Positions 641-12,822 of a stretch of DNA of 12,822 nucleotides are shown here, one piece after another. Position 1 is the first letter of the stretch; each line of letters opens with the position of its first letter. The translations under genes and the position numbers were made by a program. The notes beneath the pieces were generated by a model, which did not search any database, was not told where the DNA came from, and was given only the letters and a program-made list of their open reading frames with translations. Source of the DNA: a virus; the UHGV virus genome UHGV-1325350; one strand, given 5' to 3'.

Positions 641-1030
641 TTAAATCACAGGTCTATAATCAAACTCCCCACTTCGGGCATCATTAATGACATGAGTGAT
701 CACACCAAACACAGCATTACTGCCCGTGCATCCATCGTCATCTACTGGTAACGCCTCTTTCTTCCCGGTGCTTAAATCCTCCAGGTGCTGGCGCGGATAC
801 TTCCTGTATCTCTTTATGCGATATTCACCCTCCATAGCGCATATAAGCAGTGAACCATCAACCGGAGTAAGTGAGGAATCAACCACCAGCAAAGCACCTT
901 GCAATATTCCCTCACGGTGATGGCTGTCTGCCGCCCGCATGAAGTAGGTCGCGGAAGGATGTCTGATTAGTTGCTGATCAAGAGAAATGCGGCTCTCTGC
1001 ATAATCCGCCGCAGGAGAAGGGAAGCCCAT
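641..1030 (-). CDS. umuD: UmuD'-like SOS mutagenesis protein (peptidase S24 fold), pre-processed form resembling phage P1 HumD
   Basis: 129 aa. Starts MGFPSPAADY, which corresponds to the first residues of cleaved UmuD' (UmuD cleaves at Cys24-Gly25 before GFPSPAADY). Retains the candidate Ser (AADSHH) and Lys (RIKRYRK) dyad positions and a C-terminal VFGVITHVI block matching UmuD VFGVVIHVV. ATG at 1028-1030 with GAGG Shine-Dalgarno. LexA box lies 19 bp upstream. Confidence 0.85.
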   Translation of the reverse strand: MGFPSPAADYAESRISLDQQLIRHPSATYFMRAADSHHREGILQGALLVVDSSLTPVDGSLLICAMEGEYRIKRYRKYPRQHLEDLSTGKKEALPVDDDGCTGSNAVFGVITHVINDARSGEFDYRPVI

Positions 1031-1048: not shown

Positions 1049-1068
1049 TACTGCTTATTCATACAGTA
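1049..1068. promoter_or_regulatory. LexA operator (SOS box) TACTGCTTATTCATACAGTA
   Basis: 20-bp site with the CTG-N10-CAG core and TACTG / CAGTA ends of the LexA consensus TACTGTATATATATACAGTA. Located immediately upstream of the UmuD'-like gene and overlapping its predicted -10. Confidence 0.8.
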
Positions 1069-6997: not shown

Positions 6998-7038
6998 AAT
7001 GTATACCGACTCTGTTTTGTTCCGAGCGGTAAAATAAT

Positions 7039-7069
7039 ATGTTAGAAAACTAAAATCAATGTTCTAACA
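7039..7069. promoter_or_regulatory. Operator-like palindrome TGTTAGAA-N14-TTCTAACA containing the recurring 11-mer ATGTTAGAAAA; possible internal promoter
   Basis: Perfect 8-bp inverted arms at 7040-7047 and 7062-7069 in the 97-bp gap between the phosphatase and DUF968 genes. On the minus strand TTGATT (plus 7054-7059) sits between the arms as a -35 candidate. The same 11-mer recurs at 11129-11139 and 11787-11797. Confidence 0.5.
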
Positions 7070-7094
7070 CATTATGAGTGCGTAAATGATTTGA

Positions 7095-9309: not shown

Positions 9310-10007
9310 CTTTCCCCTTCAAAGTTCGGGCGCAGGCAGGATTGTCCTTTACGAAGCAGGGCTGCGAACCTGTCGGCCGCATCCGCGCAAGCAGAAGCAA
9401 CGGAATCAAAAAATGGATCATCTCCGGTATCGCGCATCGTCAAAGCGAATGCCTCCAATCCCTTAGCCTGTATTTCTACAAGATAAGCCTCAGATATAGT
9501 GCTTTTCGCTTCACCTAACTCGTTATGAGCTATGTTCGCTACGCATGCGATGTCTATATCTGGATGATTAATTGGGAGATGGCTAAGAATTGCCTCAAGT
9601 GCTGCTTTTTTGTTTTGGCATTCCGCCACCAGCGCCCCGCTATTGCTTTCCAGCTCTGCAATACACTTTTTAGCGGCCTCCAGCTCAACACGCAGCTTCT
9701 CAAGCGTTAGGGCCATCTCCACGTTCTCGTCCAGAAGTTCAATCACATCAGGATCGCTACCATCAACTACTGATATGCGCGAATTTTTGTAATGCTCGTC
9801 AGCATAAGTTCGTCCAGTTTTGAAGCATCCGTCATCCTCCATGCCGGAACAGGCATAAACAACATGTGATCCAGATATGCGCTGCATTGACATTTCCTCG
9901 CCACAAACAGGGCATTTAGGCGCTGGTTTCGGTGAATAACGTTCACGTAACGGATAGTAAAGCTCGATCTCCGCCAGTTGCTCTGGCGTTAAACCTTCAG
10001 ACTTCAT
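9306..10007 (-). CDS. Ead/Ea22-like coiled-coil protein, paralog C, with N-terminal Cys-rich zinc-ribbon-like segment (233 aa)
   Basis: ATG at 10005-10007 with AAGGAG at 5 nt. CPVCGEE...CSGMEDDGC near the N-terminus. Central [18 protein letters not shown] shared with paralogs A and B. Confidence 0.65.
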
Positions 10008-10314
10008 GTACTCTCCTTTCGAAATAAACGTACTGATTAATCATGCCCAGGGGCATTTCGAGTTTTTCCGCGATCTCACGGCGGGGAACACCACACTGAT
10101 GAAGCTGCCGTGCCAGTTCTATATCGCTCTGCCGGTATTTGGCTGACGGATGAAAGTCTCCTTTCAGAATCATGCTGATCCCCAGCTCCCGCGCTTTAGT
10201 CCTGACGGCATCACCGGTACGACCGATCAGCTTCCCAATACTCTCTACCGTCATAGTTCCGGCGCACTGGCGGAGTATCATGATTTCTGCCCTTCCCCAT
10301 CCCCGCCAGCTCAC
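9997..10314 (-). CDS. Small DNA-binding protein with two helix-turn-helix-like segments (105 aa with GTG start; 94 aa if internal ATG)
   Basis: Segments MTVESIGKLIGRTGDAVRTKARELGIS and SDIELARQLHQCGVPRREIAEKLEMP each look like an HTH (resolvase/sigma region 4 style). GTG at 10312-10314 overlaps the TGA of the DUF4406 gene (GTGA). Confidence 0.55.
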   Translation of the reverse strand: MSWRGWGRAEIMILRQCAGTMTVESIGKLIGRTGDAVRTKARELGISMILKGDFHPSAKYRQSDIELARQLHQCGVPRREIAEKLEMPLGMINQYVYFERRVHEV

Positions 10315-10934
10315 GCCGACATCCTCCGAGACATAAACTCCACAAAACGAACTGCATCTTCAGAAACAACACCGCATGACTTCAGATAATTCATTGCGTC
10401 ATTAGGTAGCGGATTAGTTGGTTCGGCATTTGCCAGGGATTGAGATAAACGCGTGATTAATTTGACCATTCTCCGCTGTCGGAGGTTGTATCCTTCGGCT
10501 AAAGACAGGTAACTGGAAAGGGTATTGCTTAAGCGAGCGCGAAGCTGATCCGTGCCGTGACATTCAATAGCAACATCACGCAACGCATCGACCAGTTCGC
10601 GGTAAATATGCGCTGCCATTCTGCAATCTGTGTCAGATGGCGCTTCATAAATTACCGTCAGCTCCAGTTTTTCAGCCAGGGCGTGTTCTGCTCGTGCTCC
10701 TGCGGACGCTTCCCAGCCCTTAAGCAGATAGATAGCATCAGCAGAACGCACCATTGCCAGGCAAATATCCATGTATTCACTCTGACAAAGTCCACCAGGT
10801 AACACCGCTGGATTCAGAACGATATGCCCTTCAGCCGTCAGCTCACTCGCCTTCGCATTAAACGCCGCGCGGTTGTAATCTGGATAACCAGTCATCGGAC
10901 CCGCGATGTAAATTTTCAAAACACGTTTCACCAT
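10311..10934 (-). CDS. DUF4406 (nucleoside 2-deoxyribosyltransferase-like fold) protein with about 110-aa C-terminal extension (207 aa from ATG 10932-10934; ORF track TTG at 10961)
   Basis: N-terminal KIYIAGPMTGYPDYNRAAFNAKASELTAEGHIVLNP matches the YI(A/S)GPMTG...N...AF signature remembered for DUF4406/NDT-like proteins. The ATG overlaps the stop of the upstream 51-aa ORF (TGATG); GGGGAA Shine-Dalgarno. Confidence 0.6.
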   Translation of the reverse strand: MVKRVLKIYIAGPMTGYPDYNRAAFNAKASELTAEGHIVLNPAVLPGGLCQSEYMDICLAMVRSADAIYLLKGWEASAGARAEHALAEKLELTVIYEAPSDTDCRMAAHIYRELVDALRDVAIECHGTDQLRARLSNTLSSYLSLAEGYNLRQRRMVKLITRLSQSLANAEPTNPLPNDAMNYLKSCGVVSEDAVRFVEFMSRRMSA

Positions 10935-11089
10935 CAAAATTTCCCCAGCATCGTGACGCAAAACATAAGCACTGCAAAAAGCTCAATACCAAGCTCAAGT
11001 AGCGCCAACGCGCCGAAAAACAGCACATAAAACAGGCCGATCTCATTCACAGGTGGCTGGTGGATCGCACTTAAGGCTATAAGCATCAT
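10934..11089 (-). CDS. Small hydrophobic membrane protein, 51 aa; first gene of the leftward operon (not in ORF track)
   Basis: My translation: MMLIALSAIHQPPVNEIGLFYVLFFGALALLELGIELFAVLMFCVTMLGKF. GGAGGA Shine-Dalgarno just upstream of tandem ATG (11084-11089). TGA overlaps the ATG of the DUF4406 gene. Confidence 0.4.
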   Translation of the reverse strand: MMLIALSAIHQPPVNEIGLFYVLFFGALALLELGIELFAVLMFCVTMLGKF

Positions 11090-11115
11090 GTCCTCCAAAC
11101 AGTAAACAGCGACTG

Positions 11116-11143
11116 ATATTAATGTTTTATGTTAGAAAATCAA
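11116..11143 (-). promoter_or_regulatory. Predicted sigma70 promoter of the leftward operon (-35 TTGATT, 16-bp spacer, -10 TAATAT on minus strand)
   Basis: Minus-strand sequence TTGATT-TTCTAACATAAAACAT-TAATAT. The operator half-site TTCTAACAT lies in the spacer. About 25 nt upstream of the GGAGGA Shine-Dalgarno of the first ORF. Confidence 0.55.
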
Positions 11144-11159
11144 TTTTGAATATCTAACA
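11130..11159. promoter_or_regulatory. Operator-like palindrome TGTTAGA-N16-TCTAACA in the divergent control region
   Basis: Inverted 7-bp arms at 11130-11136 and 11153-11159. Contains the 11-mer ATGTTAGAAAA (11129-11139) also found at 7039-7049 and, in opposite orientation, at 11787-11797. Lies between the leftward operon and the rightward Ref-like gene. Confidence 0.55.
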
Positions 11160-11207
11160 AATATGATCAATCATAAAAAAATCGCTGATAAGTAAGAGGC
11201 AGCCAAC

Positions 11208-11786
11208 ATGCAGAGACAGAGTTATTGGGAGAAACAGAGACAAAAAGCCATGCAAAAACTGGCTGATCCGGAATGGCGGGAAGAGCAAAGGGCAAAACGT
11301 CTTCAGCAGGCTCAACGCCAGCAGCAACGCGCAAGGGAAAAAGCCGCATCGCCTGAATATCGTCAAAAGAAACTTGAAAAAGTGAGGCAAAATGAACAGC
11401 GCAGAAGAGAGAGGGCGGCGTCAGCCCTCCCCAAAAAAACGCGCCCGTCACGCGGATTAAAAGGGAGATCACTCACAGCAGAAGAGCGCCGGATACAGGA
11501 CGCTATAGGCAAACTCCCCTGTATTGCCTGCCATCTTCACGGGAAGCATAGCCCTGTCGTATCTCTCCACCACATATTTGGCAGAACGGCTAAAGATGCC
11601 CATAAATACGTTCTCCCTTTGTGTAAATGGCACCACCAGCACGCAGCGCCAGCAGAGATCCGCGAACAATATCCCTGGTTGGTTCCTGTTCATGCTGATG
11701 GAAAAATAGGCGGGAAAGCAGATTTTATACGGCACAATGCCGAAGAGATGACGCTCTATCAGACGGTGCAAGAAATGGTGAATTAA
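11208..11786 (+). CDS. ref: Ref-like recombination enhancement function protein: HNH-type nuclease with basic low-complexity N-terminal half (phage P1 Ref-like), 192 aa
   Basis: N-terminal about 95 residues are K/R/Q/E-rich and look disordered. C-terminal half carries a His-Me finger/HNH-like motif (CIACHLHGKH...SLHHIFGR...LPLCKWHHQH). AAGAGG Shine-Dalgarno 8 nt upstream of the ATG. Architecture matches what is known for P1 Ref. Confidence 0.6.
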   Translation: MQRQSYWEKQRQKAMQKLADPEWREEQRAKRLQQAQRQQQRAREKAASPEYRQKKLEKVRQNEQRRRERAASALPKKTRPSRGLKGRSLTAEERRIQDAIGKLPCIACHLHGKHSPVVSLHHIFGRTAKDAHKYVLPLCKWHHQHAAPAEIREQYPWLVPVHADGKIGGKADFIRHNAEEMTLYQTVQEMVN

Positions 11787-11805
11787 TTTTCTAACATTTT
11801 ATGTT
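11787..11805. promoter_or_regulatory. Third copy of the operator 11-mer (TTTTCTAACAT) with small palindrome AACAT-TTT-ATGTT, immediately after the ref stop
   Basis: Exact 11-mer at 11787-11797 in forward orientation. A possible rightward promoter follows (TTGAGT 11804-11809, 17 bp, TACATT 11827-11832). Confidence 0.4.
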
Positions 11806-11910
11806 GAGTTTGAAATTTACTGATTGTACATTTTGATTAGATTGGTTCACCGCTCGACGCAACGAGACAAATCCTCAAGGATTTCGTATGATTGCCAATG
11901 TCATAGTTAT

Positions 11911-11977
11911 GGCAGCGCAATACAGGTGGCTAAAAGCCCCCGTTGACTCACGGTGTTCCAACCTGTATTGCGCCGCC
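11911..11977. repeat. Long inverted repeat (13-bp perfect arms GCGCAATACAGGT / ACCTGTATTGCGC, extendable to about 19 bp with 2 mismatches, 33-bp spacer)
   Basis: Arms at 11915-11927 and 11961-11973. No U-run follows, so it is not a typical intrinsic terminator. Lies in a 330-bp region without a confident gene. Confidence 0.6.
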
Positions 11978-12117
11978 ACCAGACCGTGGAACAGTCTGTG
12001 ACGGCTTCGAAAGCAAGGAGTCACTATGAACAATTACAAACTTTTCCCATCACTCACCGTCTACTCACGCAATAACCTGCGTTCTTTGCTCCCATCAAAA
12101 CTGGAGGGAGTATCAAA

Positions 12118-12285
12118 ATGACCGTTCGCTACCTGAATTATCAAATCCAGAACATCACTGGCGGTTGCTATGACTGGTTTGTCACTCTCGGAAAAGAAGT
12201 GATTACAGGGAAACTGGATGAAGTGAAAGCTAAGGCGTTGGCTTATGCCTGTAAACAATCCATGAAAATGAAAAGAAAAAAATAA
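12118..12285 (+). CDS. Hypothetical small protein, 55 aa, with basic C-terminal tail (not in ORF track)
   Basis: ATG at 12118-12120 preceded by GGAGGGAG at about 8 nt. My translation: MTVRYLNYQIQNITGGCYDWFVTLGKEVITGKLDEVKAKALAYACKQSMKMKRKK. TAA stop at 12283-12285, followed by a hairpin. Confidence 0.5.
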   Translation: MTVRYLNYQIQNITGGCYDWFVTLGKEVITGKLDEVKAKALAYACKQSMKMKRKK

Positions 12286-12298
12286 CAATGGGAACAAT

Positions 12299-12327
12299 CC
12301 GCCCCACTCCGCTATAAGGTGGGGCGG
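12299..12327. terminator. GC-rich hairpin between convergent genes (candidate bidirectional terminator)
   Basis: CCGCCCCAC (12299-12307) / GTGGGGCGG (12319-12327) with 11-nt loop. U-runs are imperfect on both sides, so terminator function is uncertain. Confidence 0.45.
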
Positions 12328-12342
12328 CATAATTAATACTGG

Positions 12343-12735
12343 TTAAAACTCACCTGCACGCTGTTTTTCAAGCACAGATTTAACATTTGGCGCTTTACCC
12401 TCAAAAGAATGGAAAGTGCCACATTTTTCTGTCTTCACCTCGCGCAGAGCTTCGCCATCGGCATTCTGCCATTGATGGGATAATGTCATATCACCGCGAG
12501 AAGGAACATCAAGCGAGTACAGCGTATAAGTGCCTCCCATCTCTGCATATTCCTGGAACACATAACTCATTACGTCAGATTCAGTTTTACGATGTGCGTT
12601 ATCGACCTTATTCCCGTTCAGAAATATAGCGTTTGGATAGATTTTTATATCAAACTGACCGCATTTCACTTGCAGATTCCCAGCGTCTGCCAGCAAAGGA
12701 AAAGCAGCCAATAAAGCAATAGCCAATCTTTTCAA
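12343..12735 (-). CDS. Putative secreted/periplasmic protein with signal peptide (130 aa, TTG start)
   Basis: N-terminus MKRLAIALLAAFPLLADA is a typical Sec signal peptide with an A-D-A cleavage motif. TTG start at 12733-12735 preceded by GGAGG at 5 nt. No family recognised; could be host or prophage cargo. Confidence 0.6.
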   Translation of the reverse strand: MKRLAIALLAAFPLLADAGNLQVKCGQFDIKIYPNAIFLNGNKVDNAHRKTESDVMSYVFQEYAEMGGTYTLYSLDVPSRGDMTLSHQWQNADGEALREVKTEKCGTFHSFEGKAPNVKSVLEKQRAGEF

Positions 12736-12822
12736 TTCTGCCTCCGCTGCGTAACTTATTGCCCGTATTTTTTACACCATTGCTCTGCCATTTGTTTGGC
12801 TAAAGGCCCGGCTACTGCACTG

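What the first reader, a model, noticed from the sequence alone, without database searches (positions are those of the whole stretch)
11116..11167. Divergent control region with operator palindrome inside a strong leftward promoter
The leftward promoter (-35 TTGATT, 16 bp, -10 TAATAT) has the half-site TTCTAACAT in its spacer, and the partner half-site TGTTAGA lies 16 bp away toward the Ref-like gene. A DNA-binding protein occupying this palindrome would block the leftward promoter. The candidate -10 for the rightward ref gene (TATGAT, 11162-11167) is adjacent. No repressor gene is obvious in the window; the small double-HTH protein at 9997-10314 is one candidate, and the true repressor may lie outside the window.
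Basis: seen in the sequence. Interest (0 to 1): 0.55.

Follow-up and report, generated by a model that had tools for sequence, protein, structure and literature searches.

The report
Prophage repressor operator at ref promoter
The palindrome is real and is most likely a double binding site for the master repressor (a distant relative of phage P1's C1) of a D6-like plasmid prophage, switching off the ref gene and a long divergent early operon; it is a new example of a well-known kind of switch.

Summary
The window comes from a D6-like plasmid prophage of E. coli (99.5% identical to pTB423, 84% to phage D6).

A 7-bp inverted repeat alone is not unusual in this AT-rich spacer: 23% of shuffles contain one. 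What makes it significant:
- It belongs to an asymmetric motif of about 17-21 bp, AAATTAATTTTCTAACAYA.
- The same TGTTAGA-N16-TCTAACA layout recurs at window 7040-7069, and a single site overlaps the ref stop codon at 11779-11799.
- D6 has 13 sites scoring at least 20 bits, against 0.05 expected.
- The sites lie between genes, or overlap only a gene end, next to c1, lpa, repL, c4/icd, hrdC-dmt, pmgS and ref. Phage P1 has annotated C1 operators beside the homologous genes.
- The palindrome is the main conserved block of the spacer across three lineages whose flanks differ.

The likely binder is the D6-type C1 repressor. It is 21% identical to P1 C1, falls in the same PHROG family, and is encoded outside the window. 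The in-window HTH protein is an unlikely candidate.

The site overlaps every well-scoring promoter candidate in both directions.

Verdict: a real operator, a new member of a known kind. Binding and transcription starts remain untested.

The parts
11130..11146 (-). Left operator 17-mer, AAATTGATTTTCTAACA read on the minus strand (core TCTAACA = 11136..11130).
   Evidence: PWM score 27.0 bits and 23.8 bits with this locus left out. The TGTTAGAAAATCAATTTT stretch is conserved in nearly all D6-like relatives; exceptions are a 1-nt deletion in L013 and one substitution in L043.
11143..11159 (+). Right operator 17-mer, ATTTTGAATATCTAACA. It overlaps the left 17-mer by 4 bp, so the two form a 30-bp bivalent operator.
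   Evidence: PWM score 20.7 bits and 15.4 bits with this locus left out. The CTAA core is kept in all relatives. The arm improves to a near-perfect palindrome in lineages L028-L034, L037, L038 and L043.
11116..11143 (-).
   Evidence: Sequence. Log-odds score 5.7, 8/12 consensus matches, not listed by the promoter scan. The -10 sequence is not conserved, but -10-like hexamers (GATACT, TAGTCT) sit at the same distance in L028 and L043.
11143..11170 (-). Alternative leftward promoter candidate: -35 TTGATC (11170..11165), 16-nt spacer holding the right operator arm, -10 CAAAAT (11148..11143).
   Evidence: Top-scoring leftward candidate (7.7) in the window. It recurs at the same position in L012, L028 and L043. 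GATCAA and ATTTTG are invariant columns in alignment A1.
11146..11174 (+). Best rightward (ref) promoter candidate: -35 TTGAAT (11146-11151), 17-nt spacer holding the right operator arm, -10 AATCAT (11169-11174).
   Evidence: Top rightward score (6.6) in the window and at the equivalent position in L012, L028 and L043. The geometry matches P1, where operator Oref fills the spacer of promoter P2ref.
11165..11176 (.). Conserved block GATCAATCATAA just outside the palindrome. It contains a Dam site (GATC) and overlaps both the TTGATC -35 and the AATCAT -10 candidates.
   Evidence: G82-A87 and A90-A92 are invariant columns in alignment A1.
10934..11089 (-). First gene of the leftward operon: a small hydrophobic protein (MMLIALSAIH...), with the ribosome-binding site GGAGGA at 11096..11091.
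   Evidence: ORF list. pTB423 annotates the CDS at 65861-66016. Matches phrog_8890. Translation.
11208..11786 (+). ref: a Ref-family RecA-dependent nuclease. This is the rightward gene.
   Evidence: Pfam RecA_dep_nuc, E = 2.7e-36. Annotated as Ref family in pTB423 and D6.
11779..11799 (+). Single (monovalent) operator TGAATTAATTTTCTAACATTT overlapping the ref stop codon. It is positioned like P1 Omat and is probably the operator of the downstream c4-like RNA promoter.
   Evidence: PWM score 24.4 bits. Also present in D6 (75977-75997) and L043. P1 Omat overlaps the ref stop codon. P1 Oc4 precedes promoters P2c4 and P1c4 and the c4 gene.
11905..11983 (+). c4-like antisense RNA gene, preceded by promoter candidates TTGAGT-17-TACATT (11804-11832) and GAGACA-17-TATGAT (11864-11892).
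   Evidence: Rfam RF01695, 39.7 bits (gathering score 45), E = 5.1e-6, full-length match. Fold z-score -4.1. Promoter candidates.
7037..7072 (.). Second bivalent operator with the identical TGTTAGA-N16-TCTAACA layout, between the ppp-like and pdcB-like genes. A candidate internal leftward promoter is TTGATT (7059..7054)-17-TATTTT (7036..7031).
   Evidence: PWM scores 27.2 and 23.2 bits. Promoter score 6.9. The same site is in D6 at 80706-80741.

Best explanation
The 30-bp imperfect palindrome at 11130-11159 is a bivalent operator for the master lysogeny repressor of this D6-like plasmid prophage. That repressor is a distant homologue of phage P1 C1 and is encoded outside the window, beside lox/cre.

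The operator consists of two inverted, asymmetric sites of about 17 bp (consensus AAATTAATTTTCTAACA) that overlap by 4 bp at the AT-rich centre. They cover two back-to-back -35 hexamers, TTGATT pointing left and TTGAAT pointing right. They also cover the adjoining spacers, and the spacer and -10 of a second leftward promoter candidate.

In the lysogen, bound repressor would keep RNA polymerase off all of these promoters. That would silence ref to the right and, to the left, the long early/accessory operon (small membrane protein, DUF4406, HTH protein and onward). When the repressor is absent or inactivated, both directions would fire.

A second, identical bivalent operator at 7037-7072 would guard an internal promoter of the same operon. 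A single operator at the ref stop codon would guard the promoter of a c4-like antisense RNA.

Shown here: the motif, its recurrence, its conservation, its placement beside the same genes as in P1, and the presence of a C1 homologue.
Inferred: that C1 is the binder, where transcription starts, and that binding represses.
For: 1. Source. The window is 99.5% identical to pTB423 and 83.6% to phage D6.
2. Recurrence. The same N16 layout occurs at 7040-7069, and a single site occurs at 11779-11799. pTB423 has 17 sites of at least 15 bits. D6 has 13 sites of at least 20 bits against 0.05 expected.
3. Regulon. In D6 the sites lie next to c1, lpa, pmgS/pmgR, c4-icd, repL, hrdC-dmt and ref (both upstream and at its stop codon), as well as between ppp and pdcB and between cre and orf117. 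P1 has annotated C1 operators Oc1, Olpa, OpmgRa/b, Oc4, OrepL, Odmt, Oref and Omat beside the homologous genes.
4. Local match to P1. P1 Oref fills the spacer of promoter P2ref, and Omat overlaps the ref stop codon. The window has the same two positions.
5. P1 also mixes single and bivalent operators. Oban and Oc1ab are each two inverted 17-mers overlapping at the AT-rich end.
6. Repressor. D6-type C1 aligns with P1 C1 at 21% identity over 240 aa, E = 2e-8. Both match phrog_1678, and the D6-type protein gives a weak hit to NCBIfam phage_rep_C1. The gene order pacB-c1-cre is shared with P1.
7. An operator at -31..-11 of the c1 start codon is identical in all 29 viral contigs checked.
8. Phylogenetic footprint. 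In alignment A1 the palindrome plus GATCAAyCATA is the only long conserved block across three lineages, apart from the ribosome-binding site and start of the leftward gene. It becomes a near-perfect 34-36 bp palindrome where the flanks differ completely.
9. Operator type tracks lineage. A P1-like Ref locus (L041) has P1-type sites upstream of ref and after its stop codon.
Against: - No binding or transcription data exist for this element.
- Similarity to the P1 consensus ATTGCTCTAATAAATTT is modest: at most 10/17 in the best register, and the register is ambiguous. No P1-type site occurs in the window within 3 mismatches.
- The bivalent geometry differs from P1: 30 bp with a 4-bp overlap here, against 28 bp with a 6-bp overlap in P1.
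- The right arm is weaker (15.4 bits with this locus left out) and degenerate in D6 itself, where the core reads TCTAAT.
- All promoter candidates match only about 8/12 consensus positions, and several compete.
- I could not show a C1 gene on the contig of the most divergent lineage, L043.
- The motif model was trained on pTB423, and D6 is a relative, so the two site counts are not independent.
Confidence: 0.8

Rival explanations
1. The palindrome is an operator for a different phage-encoded DNA-binding protein. Candidates are the small HTH protein at 9997-10314 or another regulator of the D6-like genome, acting as an autoregulator of the early operon.
For: The 105-aa protein matches phrog_323, 'transcriptional regulator, D5-like', and is present in D6 and nearly all D6-like loci. 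Nothing here proves which protein binds the site.
Against: - The motif is dispersed genome-wide. It includes an invariant site at the c1 start and sites beside the P1 C1-regulon homologues.
- The HTH gene lies downstream of the promoter that would be repressed.
- About 77%-identical homologues occur in 49 non-D6 viral contigs with no motif within 300 nt.
- L043 keeps a perfect palindrome, but no HTH homologue was found within 1.5 kb.
Confidence: 0.08
2. The repeated motif is a site for an activator or a host factor rather than a repressor. Examples would be the Lpa-type late activator, IHF, or Dam/SeqA-related control.
For: The centre AATCAATTTT partly resembles the IHF core WATCAA (my reading). 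A conserved GATC adjoins the palindrome.
Against: - The sites sit at early or immunity genes (c1, lpa itself, repL, c4, ref), not at the structural-gene operons.
- P1 late promoters are annotated with a different 9-bp -22 element.
- The IHF match lacks the TTR part.
- The information in the motif lies in TTCTAACA, not in the centre.
Confidence: 0.05
3. The inverted repeat is a chance feature of an AT-rich spacer and has no function.
For: 23% of shuffles of the 109-nt spacer contain a perfect 7-bp inverted repeat.
Against: The identical layout recurs, the extended motif is far over-represented (13 sites against 0.05 expected in D6), and it is conserved where the flanks diverge.
Confidence: 0.02

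Closest known systems
Phage P1 C1 repressor operators at ref (Oref, formerly Op2a) and at the ref stop codon (Omat, formerly Op2b)
   Same: - One operator lies inside the ref promoter and a second overlaps the ref stop codon.
- The sites are asymmetric, about 17 bp long, and number about 22 across the genome (PMC8546580).
- The repressor is a homologue: same PHROG family, 21% identity.
- Both elements are plasmid prophages with the gene order pacB-c1-cre.
   Different: - The operator sequence differs: AAATTAATTTTCTAACA here against ATTGCTCTAATAAATTT in P1, so the two phages are expected to be heteroimmune.
- The ref site here is bivalent and serves divergent promoters. P1 Oref is a single site, and the gene upstream of it (c8) runs in the same direction as ref.
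- The site after ref appears to serve a c4-like RNA rather than mat.
P1 bivalent operators Oban (Op72a,b) and Oc1ab (Op99a,b)
   Same: Two inverted asymmetric 17-mers overlap at their AT-rich ends to form an imperfect palindrome across a promoter.
   Different: P1 uses 28 bp with a 6-bp overlap (AAATTT); here it is 30 bp with a 4-bp overlap. Which end of the site corresponds to which in P1 cannot be settled from sequence alone.
Phage D6 (Gilcrease & Casjens 2018, Virology 515:203)
   Same: Same phage group. D6 has the same left operator, spacer and ref gene (83.6% identity). Its c1 is annotated 'similar to P1 gene C1'.
   Different: Neither D6 record shows operator features in the regions examined: the whole RefSeq record and the ref region of the GenBank record. 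The D6 right arm is degenerate (TCTAAT). I could not read the paper, so I do not know whether it already predicts these operators.

Membership tests
P1-type C1 repressor operator system | Asymmetric site of about 17 bp that can stand alone (monovalent operators) | tested here: met
   Information content is concentrated in TTCTAACA with an AT-rich 5' extension. Single sites without a partner occur at c1, lpa, repL, c4 and the ref stop codon.
P1-type C1 repressor operator system | Many sites dispersed over the genome, mainly at early, immunity and replication genes | tested here: met
   pTB423 has 17 sites of at least 15 bits. D6 has 13 sites of at least 20 bits against 0.05 expected. All lie between annotated genes or overlap only a gene end. 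P1 has 22 operators (PMC8546580).
P1-type C1 repressor operator system | Operators beside c1 itself and beside homologues of the P1 C1-controlled genes | tested here: met
   D6 has sites at c1, lpa, pmgS/pmgR, c4-icd, repL, hrdC-dmt and ref (upstream and at its stop codon). P1 has Oc1, Olpa, OpmgR, Oc4, OrepL, Odmt, Oref and Omat.
P1-type C1 repressor operator system | A mix of monovalent and bivalent (inverted, overlapping) operators | tested here: met
   pTB423 has three bivalent sites with identical N16 spacing, plus single sites. The geometry differs from P1 by 2 bp.
P1-type C1 repressor operator system | Match to the P1/P7 consensus ATTGCTCTAATAAATTT (that is, P1 immunity specificity) | tested here: not met
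   No match in the window within 3 mismatches. The best manual register gives 10/17. This is therefore not a P1-specificity operator but a diverged relative.
P1-type C1 repressor operator system | The genome encodes a C1-family repressor | tested here: met
   pTB423 48901-49938 is 90% identical to D6 C1. D6 C1 against P1 C1 gives E = 2e-8 at 21% identity. Both match phrog_1678. The NCBIfam equivalog phage_rep_C1 scores only 23 bits against a cut-off of 500, so this is a homologue, not an equivalog. The gene is outside the window.
P1-type C1 repressor operator system | C1 protein binds the site and represses transcription | not testable with these tools
   This needs EMSA or footprinting, plus reporter assays.
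   TTGATT-16-TAATAT matches 8/12 and falls below the 9/12 threshold of the scan. Its log-odds score of 5.7 ties with or trails the alternative TTGATC-16-CAAAAT at 7.7. No transcription start data are available.
   The best -35 partner matches only 2/6 (score 3.0). The hexamer is not conserved.

The most novel reading that the evidence does not exclude
The D6-type C1 repressor may recognise an operator that has not yet been described (AAATTAATTTTCTAACAYA). Unlike monomeric P1 C1, it may bind the near-perfect 30-36 bp palindromes cooperatively or as a dimer, perhaps through its roughly 60-residue C-terminal extension. One compact site would then switch two back-to-back promoters, possibly with looping to the operator 640 bp away at the ref stop codon so that ref is enclosed. 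This would define a separate immunity group among the widespread D6-like phage-plasmids of E. coli and Salmonella.
Probability: 0.2. Interest if true: 0.4.

Novelty: new member of a known kind. Interest (0 to 1): 0.3.

Why it matters
D6-like phage-plasmids are common in E. coli and Salmonella: 124 PLSDB plasmids match this region. A consensus operator and a predicted regulon of about 14-17 sites for their master repressor give three practical gains:
- A testable map of which genes are silent in the lysogen, including the Ref nuclease and a leftward operon spanning roughly 25-30 annotated genes.
- A way to predict immunity groups among these elements.
- Candidate parts for repressible bidirectional promoters.

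Conceptually it adds little. It extends the established P1 C1 paradigm to a diverged relative.

Tried and rejected
- Rfam at gathering thresholds found nothing in the window. Only a relaxed search revealed the c4-like RNA. No tRNA genes were found.
- A LexA box as an explanation for the palindrome: there is no CTGT-N8-ACAG at the site.
- P1-type operator: absent from the window.
- IHF: the centre matches only WATCAA and lacks the TTR part (my reading).
- I tried to show that the contigs of L043 (D6-like, most divergent) and L041 (P1-like) carry the matching C1 type. The P1 C1 search returned only 80 near-identical P1 hits, and the D6-type C1 alignment search did not recover the L043 contig. 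Both were uninformative.
- The D6 genome paper (PMC5800970, DOI 10.1016/j.virol.2017.12.019) and Lobocka et al. 2004 (PMC523184) are not held. Full-text searches found no paper describing D6-type operators.
- Pfam gives no family for D6-type C1, and no relative has a solved structure.
- I did not run structure prediction or the large protein searches. They would not identify the binder.

Full report
**Source of the window.** The region 10300-12822 is 99.5% identical to E. coli plasmid pTB423 (NZ_CP034790.1) and 83.6% identical to Escherichia phage D6. In all, 124 PLSDB plasmids match it. The annotation shows a D6-like plasmid prophage. A Ref-family nuclease gene (11208-11786, +) faces a long minus-strand operon. 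That operon encodes a small hydrophobic protein, DUF4406, an HTH protein, a ClpX-type zinc-finger protein, ead/Ea22-like proteins, a ppp-like phosphoesterase, a pdcB-like protein and, at its far end, hot and a humD-like S24 peptidase.

**Checking the observation.** The repeat finder extends the repeat to 26-nt arms that are 73% complementary.
- A perfect 7-bp inverted repeat with a loop of 30 nt or less occurs in 23% of shuffles of this 109-nt, 28% GC spacer.
- The promoter matches only 8/12 consensus positions and was not listed by the consensus scan.

**Recurrence.** TCTAACA occurs five times in the window against 1.25 expected. The five form the finding itself, a second pair with exactly the same TGTTAGA-N16-TCTAACA layout at 7040-7069 (between the ppp-like and pdcB-like genes), and a single copy at 11790-11796 overlapping the ref stop codon.
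- In the whole pTB423 sequence the 7-mer sits within a longer asymmetric motif, consensus AAATTAATTTTCTAACAYA.
- A 21-nt weight matrix finds 17 sites of at least 15 bits in pTB423. In D6 it finds 13 sites of at least 20 bits, against 0.05 in dinucleotide shuffles.
- With the finding's own locus left out of the model, its left arm scores 23.8 bits and its right arm 15.4 bits.
- pTB423 has three bivalent sites with identical spacing.

**What the sites sit next to.** In D6 the sites lie between annotated genes or overlap only a stop codon. They are found:
- just upstream of c1;
- upstream of lpa;
- around pmgS and pmgR;
- between repL and icd, which is the c4 position;
- upstream of repL;
- upstream of hrdC-dmt (bivalent);
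- upstream of ref and at the ref stop codon;
- between ppp and pdcB (bivalent);
- between cre and orf117.

The P1 reference record annotates C1 operators beside the homologous genes: Oc1a-e, Olpa, OpmgRa/b, Oc4, OrepL, Odmt, Oref and Omat.

The local parallel is close. P1 Oref fills the spacer between the -35 and -10 of promoter P2ref, and Omat overlaps the ref stop codon. P1 also mixes single operators with bivalent ones. Oban and Oc1ab are each two inverted 17-mers overlapping by 6 bp at the AT-rich end, 28 bp in all. Here the two 17-mers (11130-11146 on the minus strand, 11143-11159 on the plus strand) overlap by 4 bp, 30 bp in all.

**The likely binder.** D6 annotates a 345-aa 'prophage repressor, similar to P1 gene C1' next to the lox-like site.
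- The pTB423 orthologue (48901-49938, minus strand) is 90% identical to it. It lies between pacB and cre as in P1, outside the window.
- D6 C1 aligns with P1 C1 at 21% identity over 240 residues, E = 2e-8.
- Both proteins match phrog_1678 strongly.
- The NCBIfam equivalog phage_rep_C1 is hit only weakly, at 23 bits against a cut-off of 500. The protein is therefore a diverged homologue, which fits a diverged operator.
- No P1-type site occurs in the window within 3 mismatches. The best manual register between the two consensus sequences gives about 10/17.
- An operator at -31..-11 of the c1 start codon is identical in all 29 viral contigs examined. That is what an autoregulated repressor gene would show.

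P1 C1 is reported to bind 22 dispersed operators with the asymmetric consensus ATTGCTCTAATAAATTT, and to control repL and lpa (PMC8546580).

**Conservation.** Thirty-six viral contigs encode Ref relatives.
- In 33 D6-like loci the left arm TGTTAGAAAATCAATTTT is essentially invariant; L013 has a 1-nt deletion and L043 one substitution. The CTAA core of the right arm is kept throughout.
- In two divergent lineages (L028-L034, L037 and L038; and L043, whose Ref is about 70% identical) the flanks on both sides are unrelated to the window. There the site is a near-perfect 34-36 bp palindrome.
- In alignment A1 the only long conserved block is the palindrome plus an adjoining GATCAAyCATA. The other conserved stretch is the ribosome-binding site and start codon of the leftward gene.
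- A P1-like Ref locus (L041, 50% identity) instead carries P1-type sites: TTTGCTCTAATAAATTT upstream of ref and ATTACTCTAATTAATAA after its stop codon. Operator type therefore follows phage lineage while the positions stay the same.

**Promoters.** I scored candidates with a simple log-odds model built from textbook hexamer and spacer frequencies.
- Rightward: the best candidate is TTGAAT (11146-11151), a 17-nt spacer and AATCAT (11169-11174). It recurs at the equivalent position in L012, L028 and L043.
Its -10 sequence is not conserved, although -10-like hexamers occupy the same position in L028 and L043.
- A second leftward candidate, TTGATC (11170..11165)-16-CAAAAT (11148..11143), scores 7.7 and is invariant in all lineages. 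It would explain the conserved GATCAA.

Whichever candidates are real, the operator overlaps each of them. The two 17-mers cover both back-to-back -35 hexamers and part of the adjoining spacers. The right arm lies in the spacer of the alternative leftward promoter, whose -10 sits at the operator centre.

**Mechanism.** In the lysogen, D6-type C1 would occupy both arms and exclude RNA polymerase from ref and from the leftward operon. The site at 7037-7072 would do the same for a candidate internal promoter, TTGATT-17-TATTTT.

The single site at the ref stop codon precedes two promoter candidates and a c4-like antisense RNA at 11905-11983. That RNA matches Rfam RF01695 at 39.7 bits, below the gathering score of 45, with E = 5.1e-6 over the full model length, and its fold z-score is -4.1. 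This mirrors the P1 order Oc4, P2c4, P1c4, c4.

Binding, repression and transcription starts are all inferred, not shown.

The HTH protein at 9997-10314 matches phrog_323. It is unlikely to be the binder for three reasons:
- It lies within the operon that would be repressed.
- About 77%-identical homologues occur in 49 other viral contigs with no motif nearby.
- It was not found within 1.5 kb in L043.

**Novelty.** This is the D6-group counterpart of the experimentally established P1 C1/Oref system, with a different recognition sequence and a bivalent, bidirectional layout at ref. The regions of the D6 records I examined carry no operator features, and I found no paper describing them. I could not read the D6 genome paper. 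I rate it a new member of a known kind, of modest interest.

Noticed in passing
window 11905-11983 (+): A c4-like antisense RNA. It matches Rfam RF01695 at 39.7 bits, just below the gathering score of 45, with E = 5.1e-6 over the full model length, and has a strong fold (z-score -4.1). In this element no icd/ant genes follow it. Instead there are two small coupled ORFs (12026-12121 and 12118-12285), whereas D6 has icd-ant further downstream. pTB423 has a separate icd/Rha-family module at 29769-30700.
   Followed up: partly
window 7037-7072: A second bivalent operator with the identical TGTTAGA-N16-TCTAACA layout lies inside the long minus-strand operon, between the ppp-like and pdcB-like genes. 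A candidate internal promoter is TTGATT-17-TATTTT.
   Followed up: partly
window 1051-1066 (+): A LexA-box-like sequence, CTGCTTATTCATACAG (1 mismatch to CTGT-N8-ACAG), lies just upstream of the humD-like S24 peptidase gene (641-1030, minus strand). P1 has an annotated LexA site in the same position before humD. The count of such matches window-wide is at chance level, so only the position is suggestive.
   Followed up: no
window 11165-11176: An invariant GATCAAyCATA block containing a Dam site lies next to the palindrome and overlaps the candidate -35 (leftward) and -10 (rightward) elements. P1 annotates Dam sites in its cre and kilA promoters, so methylation-dependent control is conceivable.
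   Followed up: no
window 9997-10314 (-); loci L108-L156: The small HTH protein (phrog_323, 'D5-like regulator') has about 77%-identical homologues in at least 49 viral contigs that are not in the D6-like set. It therefore looks like a mosaic accessory gene rather than a D6-specific one.
   Followed up: partly
L041:1255-1271 and L041:2004-2020: A P1-like lineage whose Ref is 50% identical has P1-type C1 operators at the same two positions, upstream of ref and just after its stop codon. The operator positions are conserved while the specificity differs.
   Followed up: partly
L007:30620-30650 (D6); L013: Natural operator variants. In D6 the core of the right arm reads TCTAAT (C to T). L013 has a 1-nt deletion in the left arm (TGTTAG-AAATCAA) and ACTAACA in the right arm. 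These could serve as natural tests of binding strength.
   Followed up: no
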